Assembly: GCA_040255445.1 (NCBI GenBank)
Contig: JBDZUZ010000129.1
Coordinates: 1-11,280 of the forward strand
Origin: Planctomycetaceae bacterium
GTDB taxonomy: Bacteria; Planctomycetota; Phycisphaerae; Phycisphaerales; UBA1924
Reading direction: 5' to 3'
DNA: 11,280 nucleotides
The notes below the pieces were generated by a model. That model worked only from the letters and a program-made list of their open reading frames with translations. It was not told the origin of the DNA and did no database searches. Shown here piece by piece: positions 2,964 to 10,346 of this stretch. The number at the start of each line of letters is the position of its first letter. The first letter of the stretch is position 1. Made by a program: the position numbers and the translations under genes.

Positions 2964-4652
2964 ATGGGCATGATGTTCCTGATCGTCGGCGTGGTGCTCG
3001 CGCTCGCCATTCTTGTCAGCGTGCCGCGGATCCCGGGGGCGGCGCTCAAGGGCGCGGCCGCGGCGTTCGCGCTGCTGCTCGTCATCGCCGGGTTGCTGCT
3101 GTCTTCGGCGGTGTATGTGAGCGCCGACCGCGTCGGCATCGTCTCGAAGAACCTCTTTGGCGCCAGCCTCAAGGACGGCAAGATCATCGCCATCGACGGC
3201 GAGATGGGCGTGCAGGCCGATGTGCTCCCGCCCGGGTGGCACTGGGGCTATTGGCCGATCGTGTACAGCGTCGACACCGTTGCGCTGACCGAGGTGCCCT
3301 CGGATCAGGTCGGCCTCATCGAGGCCAAGGACGGCCTGCCCCAGGAGCCGGGCCAGCTCTTCGCGCCCGAGTTCAAGCAGGCCGAGTTCCAGAAGATGCT
3401 CGATGCGCGGTACTTCCTGACCGACGGCCGCGGCCGCAAGGGGCCGCAGTCGTCCGTGCTCACGCCCGGCAAGTACCGGCTCAACACGCAACTGTTCACC
3501 ATCCAGATGGTGCCGCAGACCGAGGTGGCGCAGGGCGAGGTCGCCGTCATCAAGGCGAACTTCGGCGCCGAGCCCTCGATCCAGATCAAGGGCGACGGGG
3601 GCGAGGGCGACATCTTCCTCGCCAAAGAAGGCGAGATGGGCGTCCGCGCCCGGCCCCTCCCGCCCGGCAAGTACCCGCTGAACACAAGGGCCTTCACCAT
3701 CGTCGAGATGTGGACCACGCAGATGATCGCCCATTACGCCGGCGGCACGACCTCCAACCCGACAAGCGGAGCCCCCCAGCGCAGCCGCGGCGGTACGCCC
3801 CGCGGCGGGCCAGAGTCCGAAGAACGCGAGATCACCGTCCGCACCAGCGATGGGTTCACCTTCCCCGTCGATGTGCGGATCGAGTACCTGATCCGCCCAG
3901 AGAACGCCCCCCTCGTCGTCGCGCGTCTCGGCAGCGATGAGGACGAGCGCTTCATGAACGCGCTCAACTCCGCCGTCCGCGCCATCTTCCGGAACAACGC
4001 AGAGGGCGTCCGCGCGCTCGACTACGTTCAGCAGCGGTCGCACCAGGAGTCCCAGTCTCTCGAGATGCTCTCCGATCAGATGGCGCGGTTCGGCGTGACC
4101 ATCACCGCCGTCCGCATCGGCAACGTCGGCGATGAAGCCTCGCTGGGGGCCCTGCTCAAGACCCAGACCGACCGCGAGATCGCCAAGCAGGAACTCATCA
4201 CCTTCCAGGAGCAGCAGAAGGCGGCCGAGCAGAAGAAGGAACTCTCCCGCGCCACCCAGGAGGCCGAGGAAGAGAAGCGGCTGGCGACCGCGGCGTACGC
4301 CGTGAAGATCGCCGAGGAGGAGCAGAAGCGCAAGGTGATCGAGGCGCAGGCCGAGGCAGAGGCGATCGGGATTCGCGCTGAGGCCCAGGCGCTGGCGTAT
4401 CAGCAGATCGCGCTGCAGATCGGCAAGGGCAACGCCGCGCTGGTGGAGCTGCTCAAGATCGTCGGCGAGCGGAACATCCAGATCACGCCGCGGGTGCTGA
4501 TTACCGGCGGGAGTGGTGGGGGTGGCAATGGGAGCGGCAACAGCGGCGAGACCACCGCACTGATCGGCACGATGCTGGACCACATGGTCTCGCGGGAAGA
4601 AGATGCCCCGCAGGCCCGCGGCCGGGTGACGCCGACCTCCGGGGGGAACTGA
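2964..4652 (+). CDS. Flotillin-like SPFH/band-7 membrane protein (YqiK/FloT family).
   Basis: Strong SD AAGGGGGA (2951-2958) 5 nt before ATG 2964. Two N-terminal hydrophobic helices. SPFH-like region. Long charged coiled-coil with EA/KQ repeats (QEAEEEKRLATAAYAVKIAEEEQKRKVIEAQAEAEAIGIRAEAQALAYQQ). Gly-rich tail ITGGSGGGGNGSGNSG, as in YqiK/FloT C-termini. Confidence 0.9.
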   Translation: MGMMFLIVGVVLALAILVSVPRIPGAALKGAAAAFALLLVIAGLLLSSAVYVSADRVGIVSKNLFGASLKDGKIIAIDGEMGVQADVLPPGWHWGYWPIVYSVDTVALTEVPSDQVGLIEAKDGLPQEPGQLFAPEFKQAEFQKMLDARYFLTDGRGRKGPQSSVLTPGKYRLNTQLFTIQMVPQTEVAQGEVAVIKANFGAEPSIQIKGDGGEGDIFLAKEGEMGVRARPLPPGKYPLNTRAFTIVEMWTTQMIAHYAGGTTSNPTSGAPQRSRGGTPRGGPESEEREITVRTSDGFTFPVDVRIEYLIRPENAPLVVARLGSDEDERFMNALNSAVRAIFRNNAEGVRALDYVQQRSHQESQSLEMLSDQMARFGVTITAVRIGNVGDEASLGALLKTQTDREIAKQELITFQEQQKAAEQKKELSRATQEAEEEKRLATAAYAVKIAEEEQKRKVIEAQAEAEAIGIRAEAQALAYQQIALQIGKGNAALVELLKIVGERNIQITPRVLITGGSGGGGNGSGNSGETTALIGTMLDHMVSREEDAPQARGRVTPTSGGN

Positions 4653-4772: not shown

Positions 4773-5312
4773 ATGAAAACCAGCACCTCCGCGATGGAAG
4801 TGGTCGAGTACCTCCAATGGCTGGCTTCCAATGAGCTCGCGGACGATGAGAGTTCGCCGCTGACCAACCTGATGGTTCAGAAGCTCCTGTACTTCGTGCA
4901 GGGGTGGAGCCTCGCCGAGACCGGCCAGCCGCTCTTCCGCGAGTCGATCGAAGCGTGGGATTACGGGCCTGTTGTGAAGGATGCGTATCAGGAGCTCAAG
5001 GTCTTTGGCAAGGCCGCGCTCCCGCTGATGCCGCGTCTTCGCACCACACTGACCGAGCACGAACAGGAACTGATCCGCGGCGTGTGGGACCGCTACAAGA
5101 ACTACTCCGCCTACGGCCTCATGCACCTAAGCCATCGCGAGCGTCCTTGGCGCGAGGCCGCGAAGGGCAAGACGATTCCGCACGAGGCCATGAAGCAGAG
5201 CTTCCTCGAGCAGATGCGGCAGGCCGAAGCGCGGCTCGCCGCCGCGTGGGATCGGATCGACAGCGCTGCCCGGACCAACACGCAGCAGATGTTCGGACGC
5301 GAGGCGATCTGA
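4773..5312 (+). CDS. Panacea-domain (DUF4065, SocA/GepA-like) protein, putative antitoxin.
   Basis: SD GGAGGA (4762-4767) 5 nt before ATG 4773. The translation contains VQKLLYFVQGWSLAETGQPLFRESIEAWDYGPVVKDAYQELK, which matches my recollection of the DUF4065/Panacea core (KLQKLLYyaqg...lf.e.ieAw.yGPV...vY). Stop TGA overlaps the ATG of the next ORF (TGATG). Confidence 0.65.
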   Translation: MKTSTSAMEVVEYLQWLASNELADDESSPLTNLMVQKLLYFVQGWSLAETGQPLFRESIEAWDYGPVVKDAYQELKVFGKAALPLMPRLRTTLTEHEQELIRGVWDRYKNYSAYGLMHLSHRERPWREAAKGKTIPHEAMKQSFLEQMRQAEARLAAAWDRIDSAARTNTQQMFGREAI

Positions 5313-5702
5313 TGCAGTTCCGCATCGGGCAGGTCTTCCACCTCAGCGAAGTCCCGCCCCTTGCCGGAGGCGATCCCAAGGACCGGTTCGTCGTGCTCAT
5401 CGGCCCCCCCGGGGCTTGACAAGCGTCCCGGGGCGTTGGTCGTCGTCGCCGCCGTCTCCAGCCGAGCGCCCGATGACTCGACGGATTATGACGCCGTGCC
5501 GATGCCCAACCGTGCGGATTTTCCATCGACGCCGGCTCCTTTCGATCGTCCCTGCTGGTGCTTTCCGCGCTGGGTCTTCCGGATCGATCGCGCCAAGCTC
5601 GGTCCGAGCCGCGGCTACATCTCGGGAGCACGGCTGCAGAGCGTGATCGAGGCGGTGGCGCAGCGTGCCGAGAATGGGCACGGGTTCCCCGGTCTTCTCT
5701 GA
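5312..5702 (+). pseudogene. MazF/PemK/Kid-family toxin gene, disrupted by a +1 frameshift in a C7 homopolymer.
   Basis: Frame 2 (5312-5419) encodes MQFRIGQVFHLSEVPPLAGGDPKDRFVVLIGPPGA*, which aligns with the Kid/PemK N-terminus (GEIWLVSLDPTAGHEQQGTRPVLIVT). Frame 3 (continuing to 5702) encodes ...LVVVAAVSSRAPDD...CWCFPRWVFRIDRAKLGPSRGYISGARLQSVIEAV, which aligns with Kid PVVVPVTSGG...CDQPRTIDMKARGGKRLERVPETIMNEVL. Removing one C from the run at 5404-5410 joins them into a ~129-aa ORF. Confidence 0.6.
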
Positions 5703-5752
5703 CACGCGCCCGCGCCAAGCCCATGCCGCGGCGGATCTCATACCCTCCGCCC

Positions 5753-6211
5753 ATGTCACCCACCGCCGTCGCGTTTCTTGGAATCGGCCTGGCGATGCTC
5801 GCCGGCGTCACCACCGCCATCCAGCCCGCCATCAACGCCCGCTTCGGCTCGCTGATGCCCTCGCGGCTGCACGGCTCGGTCGTCAACTTCGTCACCGGCC
5901 TGGCGGCGATGCTGATCGTCTGCCTGATCGTCCGCACGCCGCTGCCCAAGGCCGAGGCTCTCGCCCGCGCTCCGTGGTGGAGCTGGCTGGGCGGCCTCTG
6001 CGGCGCGTTCTTCGTGACCATGGCGATCATGCTCGTGCCCCGCCTGGGCGCTGCGGCGTACCTCACCGCGATGGTCGCGGGCATGATGATCGGCTCGCTG
6101 GTCATCGATCACTTCGGGATGCTGGGTCTGGATGTCCGCGCTGTGACACCGGGCCGGATCATGGGCATCGTCCTGATCCTGGCGGGCGTGGGCTGCGTGC
6201 GGTTCCTGTGA
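5753..6211 (+). CDS. DMT-superfamily small membrane transporter, YdcZ/DUF606 family.
   Basis: 152 aa with 4-5 hydrophobic helices. WLGGLCGAFFVTMAIMLVPRLGAAAYLTAMVAGMMIGSLVIDHFGMLGL fits the DUF606 pattern (GG..GA..V.....P..G......GQ...S...DHFG..G). The upstream ORF-track extension to 5558 is Arg-rich and is rejected. Confidence 0.82.
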   Translation: MSPTAVAFLGIGLAMLAGVTTAIQPAINARFGSLMPSRLHGSVVNFVTGLAAMLIVCLIVRTPLPKAEALARAPWWSWLGGLCGAFFVTMAIMLVPRLGAAAYLTAMVAGMMIGSLVIDHFGMLGLDVRAVTPGRIMGIVLILAGVGCVRFL

Positions 6212-6239: not shown

Positions 6240-6291
6240 GTGCCATCATGATCGCCTGCTCTGAGGCGATCGTGATGGGCTCGGCGCCGCA
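6240..6291 (+). repeat. 52-bp GC-rich hairpin repeat, copy 1 (REP-like element or terminator-like).
   Basis: GTGCCATCATGATCGCCTGCTCTGAGGCGATCGTGATGGGCTCGGCGCCGCA. Arms 6243-6257 and 6264-6278 form a 15-bp stem. On the + strand RNA the single non-canonical pair is a G·U wobble. The loop is 6 nt. A second copy with 51/52 identity lies at 7481-7532. Confidence 0.8.
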
Positions 6292-6315
6292 ACGCCGCGG
6301 CGGTACGCTACCGGC

Positions 6316-7479
6316 ATGCCTACCGGTCGTCGGTTGCTCCGAGTCGTTGCGTGCTTCGCCATCGTCCTAGGCAATGCGATTGCGCCCGCGCACCAGCCTG
6401 ATCCGACCGCAACGCCCGCCGATGCGGAAGCATCGCGTGTCAAGACCGCCATCGCCCTCCTCGAATCCGCCCACGCTTCAACAGCACCCTTCGAAGTCCG
6501 CATCCGCTACGCCGGCATGATCGGCGGCGGGATCTCCCGAGCCGATGTCGCCCGCATCCCCGGCGCCACCATACTCGAACGCGGCGATCCGCCCGTCGAG
6601 CTCTTCGCCGTGCGCGAGGGTGTGCTCACGTGCGACGGCGCGGACGGCATGCGGCTGGAGAGCCGATACATCGCCGCTCGCGTCGGCAATCCACACACCT
6701 CAGCAGAGGTTTGGACCGCCACGGAGAACGCGGTTGTGCCGACGCTGGAGGCCGAGACCGGTGTGACCGTCCGCGCGGAACTCTACCGCATCAAGCCCAC
6801 CACGCAGGGTGAGCGAGCCGCTGCCTATCAGGGATATCTCTGGACCTACGAACGCCGGCGCGCCGTGACGCATTATCTGCCCATGGCCCGGCACGTCGCC
6901 GTGGTGCTGAGCGAAGACCCCGAGACCCGTGTTCTTGCCGCGACCGATGACGCGATCCACCTCGAATCGCCCGGGGCTGGGATGCAGGCGATTGTTGACC
7001 GCAAGAGCGGCGCCCTTCGCCGCGTTCGCTTCGCGGATATTCGCGGCGGCACCACCGATTACGAGTTCAACGGCGTGATCGATGGCCCCGGCTTCCCGGC
7101 CGCGCACCCCGCCGAGGTTGTGATCCGCTACCCCGGCGGATCGACCGCAGCGGAGCTCTACAGCGACTATCGCGCGATACCCGCGCCCGATCCGGAACAG
7201 TTCACATGGCAGTCGATCGCTTTCACTGCATTCGACCCCCGGAGCGGTGAGCAGTTCTGGGCCGAGAAGAAACCCACGCCGCCCGATGTGATGGTTCTGG
7301 GAACCACATCAACCGCAGCCACAACGCCGGTGCCGCCGGTCCCCTCGCCCAACATCCCCGCCAATCCCACCCCTGGCGGGAGCACCACCGTCCCGCTCTC
7401 GCCGATTCTTCTGCTGCTGGGCCTGATCGCCGCGGCGGCGGTGATAGGAATCATCTCGATCTTCAGGCCGAAGAAATGA
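6316..7479 (+). CDS. Secreted hypothetical protein with a Pro/Thr-rich linker and a conserved C-terminal TM-plus-basic 'sorting-signal-like' module.
   Basis: N-terminal signal peptide MPTGRRLLRVVACFAIVLGNAIA/PA. GC3-biased codons throughout. C-terminus PNIPANPTPGGSTTVPLSPILLLLGLIAAAAVIGIISIFRPKK*, paralogous to the C-terminus of the 9199-9567 gene. Confidence 0.7.
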   Translation: MPTGRRLLRVVACFAIVLGNAIAPAHQPDPTATPADAEASRVKTAIALLESAHASTAPFEVRIRYAGMIGGGISRADVARIPGATILERGDPPVELFAVREGVLTCDGADGMRLESRYIAARVGNPHTSAEVWTATENAVVPTLEAETGVTVRAELYRIKPTTQGERAAAYQGYLWTYERRRAVTHYLPMARHVAVVLSEDPETRVLAATDDAIHLESPGAGMQAIVDRKSGALRRVRFADIRGGTTDYEFNGVIDGPGFPAAHPAEVVIRYPGGSTAAELYSDYRAIPAPDPEQFTWQSIAFTAFDPRSGEQFWAEKKPTPPDVMVLGTTSTAATTPVPPVPSPNIPANPTPGGSTTVPLSPILLLLGLIAAAAVIGIISIFRPKK

Positions 7480-7480
7480 T

Positions 7481-7532
7481 GTGCCATCATGATCGCCTGC
7501 TTTGAGGCGATCGTGATGGGCTCGGCGCCGCA
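7481..7532 (+). repeat. 52-bp GC-rich hairpin repeat, copy 2.
   Basis: GTGCCATCATGATCGCCTGCTTTGAGGCGATCGTGATGGGCTCGGCGCCGCA. The only difference from copy 1 is one base in the loop (C to T). It starts 2 nt after the stop of the 6316-7479 gene and lies between convergent genes. Confidence 0.8.
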
Positions 7533-8837: not shown

Positions 8838-9198
8838 CGTGCACCCTCCAGGCTCGCCCGTTCGCTACAGCGGAGAGGGTCGGACCGCACATTTCCGATC
8901 CGAACCGCGTGTCCGCGCAGCCTACCAGACTTCCCTCAAGTCGCGAGTGAAATTTCAGTCGCGTGCGTGATAACACCGCGGACGACCGTCATCCCGATAG
9001 ACTCCAGGCCGAGGACCAGTGCTCCGATCGCGGCTTCATAACCCCGCTTTCAACCATGCTCCCTTCTCGATGTCCTGTCGCCGCCGCTGCAATCCTCGCG
9101 ACCATCCGCCGAATGAAGTGATGTGCGATCACCATCGCTCGTGTTGGAGCGATCGCGGTAGAGTTGGCCGCCCGAGTGAGGAGTCGTAGGCTATTACC

Positions 9199-9567
9199 AT
9201 GCTTTCAAAGACCACGCTAATCGCGCTCGTACCTCTCTTGACCCTGCTCATCGCGCAGGCATCGCCGGCCGCGCTGCAGACCGAGCAGCCGATGTCGCCG
9301 CCCGCTGCGCAGCCCGGCATCACGGAGGGACAGCCGGCAGACGGTCCAACGCAGCGGCCCGAAGAGGCAGCGCTCGTGCAGCCGCCGGAGCCCGAGGCTG
9401 CAACCACCCCAGCCCCCGGCCGCGCTGTCCCCGCGCCCAACACCCCGGCCAACCCCGCCCCCGGCGGTCAGACCGTCCTGCCCCTTTCGCCCATCCTTCT
9501 GCTCCTGGGCCTGCTCGCCGCGGCGGTCATCATCGGGATCATCTCGATCTTCAGACGCAAGAAATGA
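9199..9567 (+). CDS. Small secreted Pro-rich protein carrying the same C-terminal TM-plus-basic module as the 6316-7479 gene.
   Basis: Signal peptide MLSKTTLIALVPLLTLLIAQA/SP. Pro/Ala/Glu-rich low-complexity middle region. C-terminus PNTPANPAPGGQTVLPLSPILLLLGLLAAAVIIGIISIFRRKK*. About 80% nucleotide identity to 7348-7479 over the last ~130 nt. Confidence 0.65.
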   Translation: MLSKTTLIALVPLLTLLIAQASPAALQTEQPMSPPAAQPGITEGQPADGPTQRPEEAALVQPPEPEAATTPAPGRAVPAPNTPANPAPGGQTVLPLSPILLLLGLLAAAVIIGIISIFRRKK

Positions 9568-9603
9568 TGGGATGCGCGCCCCGGCCACGGCGCAGCGCGT
9601 CCA

Positions 9604-9837
9604 TCAGGTACGCTGCTCCGCCCCCTCCCCATACTCAAACACCTCCTCCACATCCCGTCCGAACACCCGCGCGATTGCGAACGCCAGCTCCAGCGACGGT
9701 GCGTACTTCCCGCCCTCGATCGCGTTGATCGTCTGCCGCGTGACGCCGGTGCGATCGGCGAGCGCCTGCTGCGTCATCTCGCCGTGCATGAAGCGCAGCT
9801 CGCGGATGCGGTTGGTGATGCGTGGCTTGTCCGCCAT
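9604..9837 (-). CDS. XRE-family HTH transcriptional regulator (YozG/HTH_26-like, 77 aa).
   Basis: MADKPRITNRIRELRFMHGEMTQQALADRTGVTRQTINAIEGGKYAPSLELAFAIARVFGRDVEEVFEYGE fits the Cro/C1 HTH pattern (GvsrqtIs.iE.GKy.PSL.LaF.iA..f). The ATG at 9837-9835 overlaps the stop of the upstream membrane-protein gene, and GGGAGGG lies 5 nt upstream. The ORF-track N-terminal extension to 9999 is rejected. Confidence 0.85.
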   Translation of the reverse strand: MADKPRITNRIRELRFMHGEMTQQALADRTGVTRQTINAIEGGKYAPSLELAFAIARVFGRDVEEVFEYGEGAEQRT

Positions 9838-10346
9838 CACATCCCTCCCATCCCGCGCCGGTAGTACACGATCTGCAGCGTGTACTTGAGGACCTCCGAC
9901 ACGAACATCGACCCCAGCAGCAGGTGCGCCACCCACACCGGCGCTGCGCCGACGACCATCGCGCTGATCCCGCAGATCACGCCAGCGCCCACGATCCACG
10001 CCGCGTTGCTCTCCGCCCGCCAGCCGATCAGCCGGTCGCGCTCATCGCGATGATCGGGCGATCGCGCGCTGCCGGCCCCGCCGCCGAGCCGCTCACCGAT
10101 GAGCGCGGCGAGGTGCCCGACCACCAGCACGACGACCATCAGCACCACCGCCGCGGCGAACAGCGGCACATACGCCGGCAGCGCCATCACCCCGTTGGCC
10201 ATCATGGCCCCCGCCACGGCGAAGTACCCGCCCAGGACGACCACCATGGAAATCAGCTGCACCCAGACGCTCTTCTCGCTGTACGACCCCACCGGACCCT
10301 CCCTTCCAAGCCGCTCGGGCCCGTGCAGGTCGCATCGAGCCGACAT
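9837..10346 (-). CDS. Small integral membrane protein (about 4 TM), translationally coupled upstream of the XRE regulator (DUF2178-like arrangement).
   Basis: Four hydrophobic segments (VWVQLISMVVVLGGYFAVAGAMM, ALPAYVPLFAAAVVLMVVVLVVGHLAALI, AAWIVGAGVICGISAMVVGAAPVWVAHLLLGSMF). Ends ...RRGMGGM* with ATGTGATG overlap onto the regulator start. Start ATG 10346 is chosen because a sigma70-like promoter sits immediately upstream. An alternative GTG start ~70 nt downstream has a GGAAGGGAGGG SD. Confidence 0.65.
   Translation of the reverse strand: MSARCDLHGPERLGREGPVGSYSEKSVWVQLISMVVVLGGYFAVAGAMMANGVMALPAYVPLFAAAVVLMVVVLVVGHLAALIGERLGGGAGSARSPDHRDERDRLIGWRAESNAAWIVGAGVICGISAMVVGAAPVWVAHLLLGSMFVSEVLKYTLQIVYYRRGMGGM

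What the first reader, a model, noticed from the sequence alone, without database searches (positions are those of the whole stretch)
6240..7532. 52-bp hairpin repeat present twice, bracketing a single gene as direct repeats
A 52-bp element (51/52 identical) occurs at 6240-6291 and 7481-7532, in both cases starting within ~30 nt after the stop of a + strand gene. It folds into a 15-bp stem. The one non-Watson-Crick pair is G·U only when read from the + strand, and the single difference between copies is in the loop. This implies selection on an RNA structure transcribed with the upstream genes, with no U-tract. The two direct copies precisely bracket gene 6316-7479, one of the sorting-tail paralogs. 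That raises the possibility that the gene sits in a cassette-like unit, or that the element is a family of REP-like / Rho-independent-like 3' stabiliser hairpins.
Basis: seen in the sequence. Interest (0 to 1): 0.55.

Follow-up and report, generated by a model that had tools for sequence, protein, structure and literature searches.

The report
REP-like palindromic repeat in a Phycisphaerales contig
The two near-identical 52-base hairpins are real and look like a small REP-type repeat family (short intergenic palindromes that accumulate behind genes) also found in related uncultured Phycisphaerales; that is ordinary biology in a little-studied lineage, not a gene cassette.

Summary
A 52-nt unit lies at 6240-6291 and 7481-7532 (51/52 identical). 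It has a 15-bp stem, a 6-nt loop, one U·G pair on the + strand and no U-tract.

The exact stem sequence was found in no public collection I could scan. The architecture does recur in related Phycisphaerales contigs fetched through AsnRS homologues (L009, L010, L012). It has four parts:
- a 5' tag GTGN,
- a stem foot CAY,
- a 10-15-bp stem,
- often the same loop GCYYTG and a T·G wobble at stem position 6.

All 13 non-coding members sit in or at the edge of intergenic spacers. Most lie just after a stop codon. Some form inverted pairs, and stem differences are compensatory. Control tags give 0-2 such hits.

The window also holds a decayed third copy (9123-9176). It follows a relic of the same tail-coding gene end.

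These features fit repetitive extragenic palindromes (REPs) of the GT[AG]G-tagged type. REPs of this type are already known in Planctomycetes. The cassette idea is not supported.

Two things could not be tested: the copy number in the source genome, and whether a RAYT-type transposase (the enzyme thought to spread REPs) is present. Verdict: a new member of a known kind, of modest interest.

The parts
6240..6291 (+). Copy A of the 52-nt unit. Tag GTGC 6240-6243; stem 6243-6257 / 6264-6278 with T6249·G6272; loop GCTCTG 6258-6263; 3' tail GCTCGGCGCCGCA 6279-6291. It lies 28 nt after the stop of the YdcZ-family gene and 24 nt before the start of gene 6316-7479.
7481..7532 (+). Copy B of the 52-nt unit. 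Tag GTGC 7481-7484; stem 7484-7498 / 7505-7519; loop GCTTTG 7499-7504; tail 7520-7532. The unit starts 1 nt after the stop codon 7477-7479, and the stem starts 4 nt after it. It lies in a 152-nt convergent spacer.
9123..9176 (+). Decayed third copy. Tag GTGC 9123-9126; loop position GTGTTG 9141-9146; only the inner 7 bp of the stem still pair. It is 68% identical to copy B.
   Evidence: The covariance model gives 19.6 bits, E 0.007 over 130 kb and 6e-4 in the window alone. Alignment and identity against a random maximum of 0.64 are; the fold is.
9043..9121 (+). In-frame relic of a tail-coding gene end (PLSTMLPSRCPVAAAAILATIRRMK*). It has the same TGA-T-GTGC junction to the element as in copy B. 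It is 63% identical in nucleotides to 7385-7480.
5754..6211 (+). DMT_YdcZ-family membrane protein gene, whose 3' end precedes copy A. The ORF is listed as 5558-6211; the likely start is near 5754.
6316..7479 (+). Gene for a 387-aa secreted or anchored protein of unknown function, lying between copies A and B. It has a C-terminal hydrophobic tail. Only about 27 remote homologues were found.
7339..7481 (+). Tail-coding segment shared with the 122-aa paralogue (9427-9569, 80% identical). This homology ends exactly where copy B begins.
   Evidence: (D1)
9565..9608 (+). Unrelated strong hairpin on the stop codon of the 122-aa paralogue. It is not a family member because it has no GTGN-CAY tag. It shows that 3'-end hairpins recur at this locus.

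Best explanation
The 52-nt unit is a REP-type element: a short, tagged, imperfect palindrome from a family dispersed in intergenic spacers of some Phycisphaerales genomes.

Shown:
- The unit is GTGN tag + CAY foot + a 10-15-bp stem + (often) a GCYYTG loop.
- It lies outside genes, usually just downstream of a stop codon, with the tag nearest that codon.
- It occurs as singletons, tandem pairs and inverted (head-to-head) pairs.
- Stems differ between copies and between genomes by compensatory changes. The tag, the loop and a T·G irregularity at stem position 6 stay the same.

In the window, an old block duplication carried the element together with the 3' end of a tail-encoding gene. Copy B and the decayed copy at 9123-9176 descend from that event. 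Much more recently the 52-nt unit alone was copied between the site behind the YdcZ gene and the site behind gene 6316-7479 (98% identity).

Inferred, not shown:
- As with other REPs, the tagged strand folds as single-stranded DNA and is recognised by a Y1 HUH (RAYT / TnpA_REP-like) enzyme that spreads or maintains the copies.
- When transcribed, the -28 kcal/mol hairpin acts as a 3' barrier to exonucleases, or as a weak terminator without a U-tract, for the upstream gene.
- Copy B's stem starts only 4 nt after the stop codon, so it may also hinder the terminating ribosome. That effect was reported for E. coli REPs; I cite it from my own knowledge, not from a tool result.

That the two copies flank one gene is a consequence of element density, not of a cassette mechanism.
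For: Anatomy and significance in the window.

Related hairpins in other genomes:
- L010(-) 11824-11781 and 11622-11577 have loop GCTCTG and 15-bp stems, and differ by an A-T/G-C swap.
- L010(-) 16593-16550 is 74% identical to the window element, with 4 fully compensatory pair swaps and the same T·G position.
- L010(-) 16692, 6412 and 6316 are further members.
- L009(+) 6846 and L009(-) 6962 form an inverted pair.
- L012(+) 18100 and L012(-) 18202 form an inverted pair with loops GCCCTG and GCTTTG.

Enrichment. The descriptor GTGNCAY + stem gives 18 hits in 195 kb, 13 of them non-coding. Ten control tags give 0-2 non-coding hits each. Intergenic DNA is only about 11% of the sequence.

Loop. GCYYTG occurs in 6 of the roughly 32 six-nt-loop hairpins. 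About 0.05 would be expected from base composition.

Wobble. The T·G at stem position 6 is conserved in three different stem families.

Pairing. 92.5% of cells are paired and 15/15 pairs show double changes. The covariation score is 1.04 against 0.29 for shuffles (0/500) and 0.10-0.26 for slid controls.

Third decayed copy with the gene-end relic.

The tagged strand folds better as both RNA and DNA.

Canonical hairpin + U-tract terminators also exist in these relatives, so this element is not the clade's ordinary terminator.

Published REP features match. These include a 5' GT[AG]G tag (GTGG in Opitutus), G-T pairs, and sub-families with complementary stem changes. They also include location between unidirectional or convergent ORFs downstream of coding regions, predominant head-to-head dimers, and presence in Planctomycetes (PMC3733652; PMC6006769; PMC8266576).
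Against: - The copy number in the source genome is unknown. The window is the whole 11,280-bp contig. The exact stem was absent from genome, viral and metagenome collections and from plasmids and phages.
- No RAYT / Y1 transposase gene appears in the window or in the roughly 195 kb of relatives. That is only a small sample of each genome.
- The window's tag is GTGC, not GT[AG]G.
- The stem (14-15 bp) is longer than the 5-13 bp reported for GTAG REPs.
- The repeated unit carries a 13-nt 3' tail.
- Six of ten sampled relatives showed no member.
- Members were found by looking for hairpins, so the covariation statistics are inflated by ascertainment.
- No transcript data exist.
Confidence: 0.62

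Rival explanations
1. Private local duplication. The hairpin is an ordinary gene-end stem-loop (RNA stabiliser or terminator) belonging to the tail-paralogue genes. It was copied only by local segmental duplication or gene conversion, is not a dispersed or mobile family, and resembles hairpins in other genomes by coincidence.
For: - All three copies lie within 3 kb of one another.
- The decayed copy shows that the element travelled with a gene end in a block duplication.
- No other exact-stem copy exists in any collection scanned.
- A different hairpin occupies the same position behind the 122-aa paralogue.
Against: - Copy A has no tail-coding sequence next to it, and the A/B identity stops sharply at the 52-nt unit.
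- Tag, loop, stem length and wobble position are shared with hairpins at unrelated loci in three other genomes. L010(-) 16593 is 74% identical with four compensatory swaps.
- Control tags do not give such hairpins.
Confidence: 0.15
2. A dedicated RNA element. The family is a transcribed 3'-UTR hairpin whose conserved GCYYUG loop and U·G are read by an RNA-binding protein. It would serve factor-dependent 3'-end formation, processing or stability. It would spread passively, with no DNA-level transposase.
For: - Singleton and tandem copies are co-oriented with the gene whose stop lies just upstream, as in window A and B, L009 6846, L010 6412 and 11824, and L012 18100.
- The loop is conserved while the stems vary.
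- The U·G is on the sense strand.
- The hairpin has no U-tract, so it is not a classical terminator.
Against: - Inverted pairs include a copy antisense to both flanking genes, at L009(-) 6962 between two + genes.
- Near-identical multi-copy spread within a genome needs a copying mechanism.
- No Rfam family matches.
- The same features (tag, irregularity, loop) are the known recognition determinants of REP transposases on single-stranded DNA (PMC8266576).
Confidence: 0.12
3. Recombination-site cassette. The two direct copies are core sites of a site-specific recombinase, each with two 15-bp inverted arms around a 6-bp spacer. Together they flank a mobile single-gene cassette, in the manner of integron attC or lox/dif-like modules.
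For: - The direct repeats bracket exactly one gene of unknown function with few homologues.
- The arm-spacer-arm geometry resembles a recombinase core site (read directly from the sequence).
- The only difference between the copies is in the spacer.
Against: - The window has no integrase or recombinase.
- The attC R boxes (RYYYAAC...GTTRRRY) are absent.
- The bracketed gene's GC content equals that of its flanks.
- In relatives the same kind of hairpin occurs twice in one spacer with no gene between, or as inverted pairs.
- The third copy is attached to a gene-end relic, not to a cassette boundary.
Confidence: 0.04

Closest known systems
GTAG-tagged REPs (repetitive extragenic palindromes) and their REPIN/BIME dimers, as catalogued by Di Nocera et al. 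2013 (PMC3733652) and Quentin et al. 2018 (PMC6006769)
   Same: - A short palindrome with an unpaired 5' tetranucleotide tag at the stem foot. The tag is GTGG in L010 and L012, the variant reported for Opitutus terrae.
- Intergenic location, mostly downstream of coding regions and in unidirectional or convergent spacers.
- G·T pairs on the tagged strand.
- Species-specific stems, with sub-families differing by complementary changes.
- Head-to-head inverted dimers 40-80 nt apart.
- Known presence of REPs in Planctomycetes.
   Different: - The window's tag is GTGC; GTGA and GTGT also occur.
- The stem is 14-15 bp, against the 5-13 bp reported.
- A hexaloop GCYYTG and a T·G at stem position 6 are conserved across different stem families.
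- The window unit carries a 13-nt 3' tail.
- No associated RAYT was seen, and the genome-wide copy number is unknown.
Rho-independent (intrinsic) terminators
   Same: A G+C-rich hairpin placed 1-30 nt after a stop codon, on the sense strand.
   Different: There is no U-tract, while canonical hairpin + U-tract terminators are present in the same clade. Copies are near-identical repeats, and some copies are antisense.
Class 3 TnpA_Y1-associated hairpins of Planctomycetes and Acidobacteria (PMC6006769)
   Same: Multi-copy hairpins with a 5' tetranucleotide foot, in the same phylum.
   Different: The published foot is CnGA, not GTGN. No class 3 gene was seen here.
Integron attC sites
   Same: An imperfect palindrome at the 3' end of a gene. 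Direct copies flank a single ORF.
   Different: There are no R''/R' core sites and no IntI. Relatives' copies are not arranged as cassette arrays.

Membership tests
REP (GT[AG]G-tagged repetitive extragenic palindromes) | Short (about 21-65 nt) imperfect palindrome able to form a stem-loop | tested here: met
   A 36-nt hairpin within a 52-nt unit. It is the most stable 44-nt window on the + strand of the contig.
REP (GT[AG]G-tagged repetitive extragenic palindromes) | Conserved tetranucleotide GT[AG]G immediately 5' of the stem foot | tested here: inconclusive
   All members start GTGN followed by CAY. The tag is GTGG in L010 11824 and 11622 and in both L012 copies. It is GTGC in the window, L010 16593, 16692 and 6412, and L009. 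The first three bases fit the consensus. The fourth base in the window does not, and it pairs with G6278.
REP (GT[AG]G-tagged repetitive extragenic palindromes) | Extragenic, mainly between unidirectional or convergent genes and downstream of coding regions | tested here: met
   13 of 13 well-formed non-CDS members lie in or at the edge of intergenic spacers, which make up about 11% of the sequence. Window copy A is in a unidirectional spacer and copy B in a convergent one.
REP (GT[AG]G-tagged repetitive extragenic palindromes) | Many dispersed copies per genome (tens to thousands) | tested here: inconclusive
   The source genome is not available beyond this 11-kb contig, which holds 2 intact copies and 1 decayed copy. 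L010 has 6 members in 3 spacers within 21 kb. L009 and L012 have 2-3 each. Six other relatives have none in about 20 kb each. The exact stem is absent from all scanned collections.
REP (GT[AG]G-tagged repetitive extragenic palindromes) | Sub-families with complementary stem changes; G·T pairs on the tagged strand | tested here: met
   Compensatory swaps occur within L010, L012 and L009 pairs. There are four between the window element and L010 16593. All 15 pairs show double changes. The T·G at position 6 is.
REP (GT[AG]G-tagged repetitive extragenic palindromes) | Frequent inverted dimers (HH/TT; REPIN/BIME) | tested here: met
   Met in relatives: L009 6846(+)/6962(-) and L012 18100(+)/18202(-), with tags outward. 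The window itself has no such dimer; its copies are direct and 1,241 nt apart.
REP (GT[AG]G-tagged repetitive extragenic palindromes) | A cognate RAYT / TnpA_REP (Y1 HUH, PF01797-like) gene in the genome, typically flanked by REPs | not testable with these tools
   No such domain appears in the window or in the precomputed Pfam lists of the fetched loci.
Intrinsic (Rho-independent) terminator | Run of U directly 3' of a G+C-rich hairpin | tested here: not met
   The stem is followed by GCTCGGCGCCGCA. Neither copy appears among the terminator-like sites.
Integron attC | R''/R' core sites (RYYYAAC ... GTTRRRY) and a nearby IntI integrase | tested here: not met
   The element contains no AAC...GTT boxes. 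The window has no integrase domain.
Any curated RNA family (Rfam 15) | Match to a covariance model | tested here: not met
   No hit lies at or near the element at E <= 1.

The most novel reading that the evidence does not exclude
The conserved GCYYUG hexaloop, the position-6 U·G and the GUGN tag could define a previously undescribed, protein-recognised RNA 3'-end element of Phycisphaerales. This would be a factor-dependent terminator or processing signal without a U-tract. A less likely variant is a lox-like recombination site that makes single genes excisable. Under either reading the REP resemblance would be superficial.
Probability: 0.1. Interest if true: 0.6.

Novelty: new member of a known kind. 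Interest (0 to 1): 0.3.

Why it matters
REP elements shape bacterial genomes and gene expression. They affect mRNA stability, termination, translation near stop codons and recombination hot spots. They have been characterised almost only in Proteobacteria.

A family with a GTGN tag, a long stem, a fixed hexaloop and a fixed T·G irregularity would add a lineage-specific example from uncultured Phycisphaerales. Its recognition determinants are easy to read off, which makes it a good substrate for finding the cognate Y1 HUH enzyme.

For annotation, the result explains why identical hairpins flank a gene without invoking a cassette. It also flags a decayed paralogue relic at 9043-9176.

Tried and rejected
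1. Exact-stem pattern scans of genome contigs, viral contigs and metagenome contigs gave only chance palindromes inside coding regions. The source genome is not in those collections.
2. BLASTN of the element against plasmids and phages found nothing related.
3. Rfam gave no match.
4. A word-indexed homologue search with the 387-aa protein returned only the protein itself. A profile of the two C-terminal tails returned nothing, not even the queries. Paralogue contigs from the same genome could therefore not be fetched.
5. Look-ups of window proteins led only to two short Logan contigs identical to the window.
6. Synteny comparison failed. The relatives share only AsnRS and Band_7, so no empty-site comparison for gene 6316-7479 was possible.
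7. A sigma-54 promoter reading of TGGCA(C/T) was considered. I rejected it because the window and several other members have GC instead of GG at the -24 position.
8. Target-site duplications were looked for. GCCGCGG occurs on both sides of copy A but is not flush with the unit, and nothing comparable flanks copy B. I rejected this.
9. The bracketed gene shows no compositional anomaly.
10. An energy threshold alone did not separate GTGSCA-tagged sites from control motifs in this G+C-rich DNA. A stem-anchored descriptor was needed.
11. A cluster look-up gave no accession for the source MAG.
Full report
**1. The observation**

The window is a whole contig of 11,280 bp from a G+C-rich (about 67%) member of the Phycisphaerales. 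Three results point to that order:
- The AsnRS is 81-83% identical to those of MAGs labelled Phycisphaerales or Planctomycetota.
- A GC-type dockerin protein is present.
- An H-X9-DG-like protein is present.

The 52-nt repeat is present exactly as described, at 6240-6291 and 7481-7532, 51/52 identical. The one difference is in the loop (C6261 / T7502). Each copy has:
- a 15-bp stem (6243-6257 / 6264-6278),
- a 6-nt loop (GCTCTG or GCTTTG),
- one T·G pair (T6249·G6272), which is a C·A mismatch on the other strand,
- a 13-nt tail, GCTCGGCGCCGCA.

The two copies are the two most stable 44-nt windows on the + strand of the contig, at -28.6 and -28.4 kcal/mol. The contig mean is -12.2 with sd 4.6. 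Against shuffles, z is -4.2 and -4.4 on the + strand and -2.5 and -3.5 on the - strand.

Copy A begins 28 nt after the stop of a DMT_YdcZ gene. Copy B begins 1 nt after the stop of gene 6316-7479. Neither is followed by a U-tract. An independent Logan assembly reproduces both copies.

**2. Surroundings**

Genes on the contig:

| Coordinates | Strand | Product |
|---|---|---|
| 90-857 | + | H-X9-DG-like protein |
| 860-~1300 | - | macro domain |
| 1333-~2775 | - | AsnRS |
| ~2964-4652 | + | Band_7 |
| 4773-5312 | + | SocA_Panacea antitoxin |
| ~5754-6211 | + | YdcZ family |
| 6240-6291 | + | copy A |
| 6316-7479 | + | 387-aa protein with signal peptide and C-terminal hydrophobic tail |
| 7481-7532 | + | copy B |
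| 7632-~8750 | - | GC-dockerin protein |
| 9199-9567 | + | 122-aa protein with the same tail (80% nt identity, 7339-7481 vs 9427-9569) |
| 9604-9840 | - | HTH_3 |
| 9837-10292 | - | 151-aa protein |
| 10454-end | + | partial ORF |

No recombinase, integrase or transposase domain is present. The bracketed gene has the same GC content as its flanks. It has about 27 remote homologues (24-37% identity) among 1.84 billion representatives.

**3. Search for other copies**

The exact stem (ATCAYGATCGCC-N6-10-GGCGATCRTGAT) occurs in no species-representative genome, IMG/VR contig or JGI metagenome contig. The few hits are chance palindromes in coding regions. BLASTN against plasmids and phages gave nothing, and Rfam gave nothing.

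The source genome is therefore not in the searchable collections, and its copy number cannot be counted here. That is the main gap in this analysis.

**4. Relatives**

I fetched about 20 kb around the AsnRS gene of ten related genomes. Synteny ends after Band_7, so no empty-site comparison was possible.

Scanning gene 3' regions for hairpins turned up a hairpin in L010 with a 15-bp stem and the loop GCTCTG, identical to the loop of window copy A. Reading the spacer showed two such hairpins 200 nt apart that differ by a compensatory A-T/G-C swap.

Systematic scans then defined a family. Every member starts with GTGN followed by CAY, where the stem begins. The stem has 10-15 pairs. In seven members the loop is GCYYTG.

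Members:

| Locus | Strand | Position | Notes |
|---|---|---|---|
| window | + | 6240 (A) | |
| window | + | 7481 (B) | |
| L010 | - | 11824 | |
| L010 | - | 11622 | |
| L010 | - | 16593 | |
| L010 | - | 16692 | |
| L010 | - | 6412 | |
| L010 | - | 6316 | |
| L009 | + | 6846 | inverted pair with 6962 |
| L009 | - | 6962 | inverted pair with 6846 |
| L009 | + | 4590 | at a gene edge |
| L012 | + | 18100 | inverted pair with 18202 |
| L012 | - | 18202 | inverted pair with 18100 |

L011, a second assembly of the L010 species, carries the same copies.

Statistics:
- The descriptor gives 18 hits in 195 kb, 13 of them non-coding. Intergenic DNA is only about 11% of the sequence. Ten control tags of the same composition give 0-2 non-coding hits each.
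- About 0.05 GCYYTG loops would be expected among the roughly 32 six-nt-loop hairpins found. Six were observed, in three genomes and four stem families.

**5. Homology and structure conservation**

L010(-) 16593-16550 reads GTGCCACGATCATCGCGGGCTTTGACGCGATGGTCGTG. It is 74% identical to the window element. Four of the differences are fully compensatory pair swaps, and the T·G is in the same place.

Counted from the CA foot, the T·G sits at stem position 6 in the window, in L010 16593 and in L010 11824/11622. These three have unrelated stem sequences. A degenerate copy has T·T at that position.

On a gapless, loop-anchored alignment of eight sequences:
- 92.5% of cells pair.
- All 15 pairs show changes on both sides.
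- The covariation score is 1.04, against 0.29 for shuffles (0/500) and 0.10-0.26 for slid registers.

Caveat: members were ascertained as hairpins, so these numbers overstate independent support. The independent evidence is the co-occurrence of tag, loop, wobble position and intergenic location.

The tagged strand is the better folder with both RNA and DNA parameters. The strand asymmetry therefore identifies the folding strand but not the molecule.

**6. A third copy in the window**

A covariance model built from A, B and L010 16593 finds one further site, at 9121-9165 (+). It scores 19.6 bits, with E 0.007 over 130 kb and 6e-4 in the window alone.

Alignment shows about 135 collinear nt in two parts:
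- 9043-9121 is an in-frame relic of the tail-coding gene end (PLSTMLPSRCPVAAAAILATIRRMK*). It is 63% identical to 7385-7480, against a random maximum of 0.58.
- The same TGA-T-GTGC junction follows, and then a decayed element. That element is 68% identical to copy B, against a random maximum of 0.64. Only 7 bp of its stem survive.

So the element was once duplicated together with a gene end. By contrast, A and B share only the 52-nt unit, with sharp boundaries, at 98% identity. That points to a much more recent copying or conversion of the unit alone.

**7. Comparison with known systems**

The features match published accounts of REPs:
- a 21-65-nt palindrome with a 5' GT[AG]G tetranucleotide at the stem foot (PMC6006769);
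- the tag degenerate in some families and GTGG in Opitutus terrae;
- G-T pairs;
- sub-families with complementary stem changes;
- location between unidirectional and convergent ORFs, downstream of coding regions;
- head-to-head dimers predominant;
- presence in Planctomycetes (PMC3733652).

TnpA_REP recognises the folded single DNA strand through the tag, a stem irregularity and the loop (PMC8266576). Those are exactly the three features conserved here.

Differences from published REPs:
- The window's tag is GTGC.
- The stems are longer (14-15 bp).
- The hexaloop is fixed.
- The unit has a 13-nt tail.
- No RAYT was seen.

Other comparisons:
- The element is not a canonical intrinsic terminator. 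It has no U-tract, and true hairpin + U-tract terminators are present in the same spacers of relatives.
- It is not an attC site. It has no R boxes, and no IntI is present.

**8. Mechanism**

Shown: a tagged, structure-conserved, intergenic, multi-copy palindrome family. The window holds three members of different ages.

Inferred:
- Copies spread or are maintained by a Y1 HUH enzyme acting on the tagged single strand.
- Once transcribed, the hairpin protects or ends the upstream mRNA.
- Copy B lies 4 nt from the stop codon and may also affect translation termination. REP roles in mRNA stability, termination and translation are summarised in PMC6006769. The stop-codon proximity effect is from my own knowledge of E. 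coli work.

That one gene lies between two copies follows from element density (2-6 copies per 10-20 kb where the family is present). It is not evidence for a cassette.

**9. Verdict**

This is a new member of a known kind, of modest interest. The decisive missing data are the copy count in the complete source genome and the presence of a cognate RAYT.

Noticed in passing
window 9043-9176 (+): A decayed relic of a third tail-paralogue gene end (PLSTMLPSRCPVAAAAILATIRRMK*) followed by a degenerate copy of the hairpin element. It lies in the divergent spacer upstream of the 122-aa gene.
   Followed up: yes
window 5312-5700 (+): The SocA_Panacea antitoxin gene (4773-5312) is followed by only a 35-codon ORF. 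Coding-like sequence then continues in another frame to about 5700. This looks like a frameshifted or decayed toxin partner.
   Followed up: partly
window 9565-9608: A different strong hairpin (-26 kcal/mol) starts on the stop codon of the 122-aa paralogue and overlaps the stop of the convergent HTH_3 gene. It has no GTGN-CAY tag, so it is not a family member.
   Followed up: partly
window 7339-7479 and 9427-9567: The 387-aa and 122-aa proteins share a C-terminal tail, PLSPILLLLGL..IISIFR(P/R)KK, preceded by a Pro-rich linker. The two tails are 80% identical at the nucleotide level. The tail matches no Pfam or NCBIfam sorting-signal model and may be an undescribed anchor or sorting motif.
   Followed up: partly
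L010 (all six members) and L012 18121-18153: All six family members in L010 lie on the same strand, which may reflect a replication-strand or transcription bias. In L012 the 3' arm of the + element is tandemly duplicated (AGCAGGCATG[T/C]CTTCC x2).
   Followed up: no
L016 / L017 936-8748: A bacterial gasdermin gene lies next to a CHAT protease and an NACHT/WD40 protein, beside AsnRS, in a related genome. This is a likely defence island.
   Followed up: no
The search for homologous proteins behaviour: The word-indexed search did not return the 122-aa paralogue for the 387-aa query, although phmmer gives E 6e-11 at database size. The tail profile returned nothing at all. The low-complexity tail probably defeats the word index.
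   Followed up: partly
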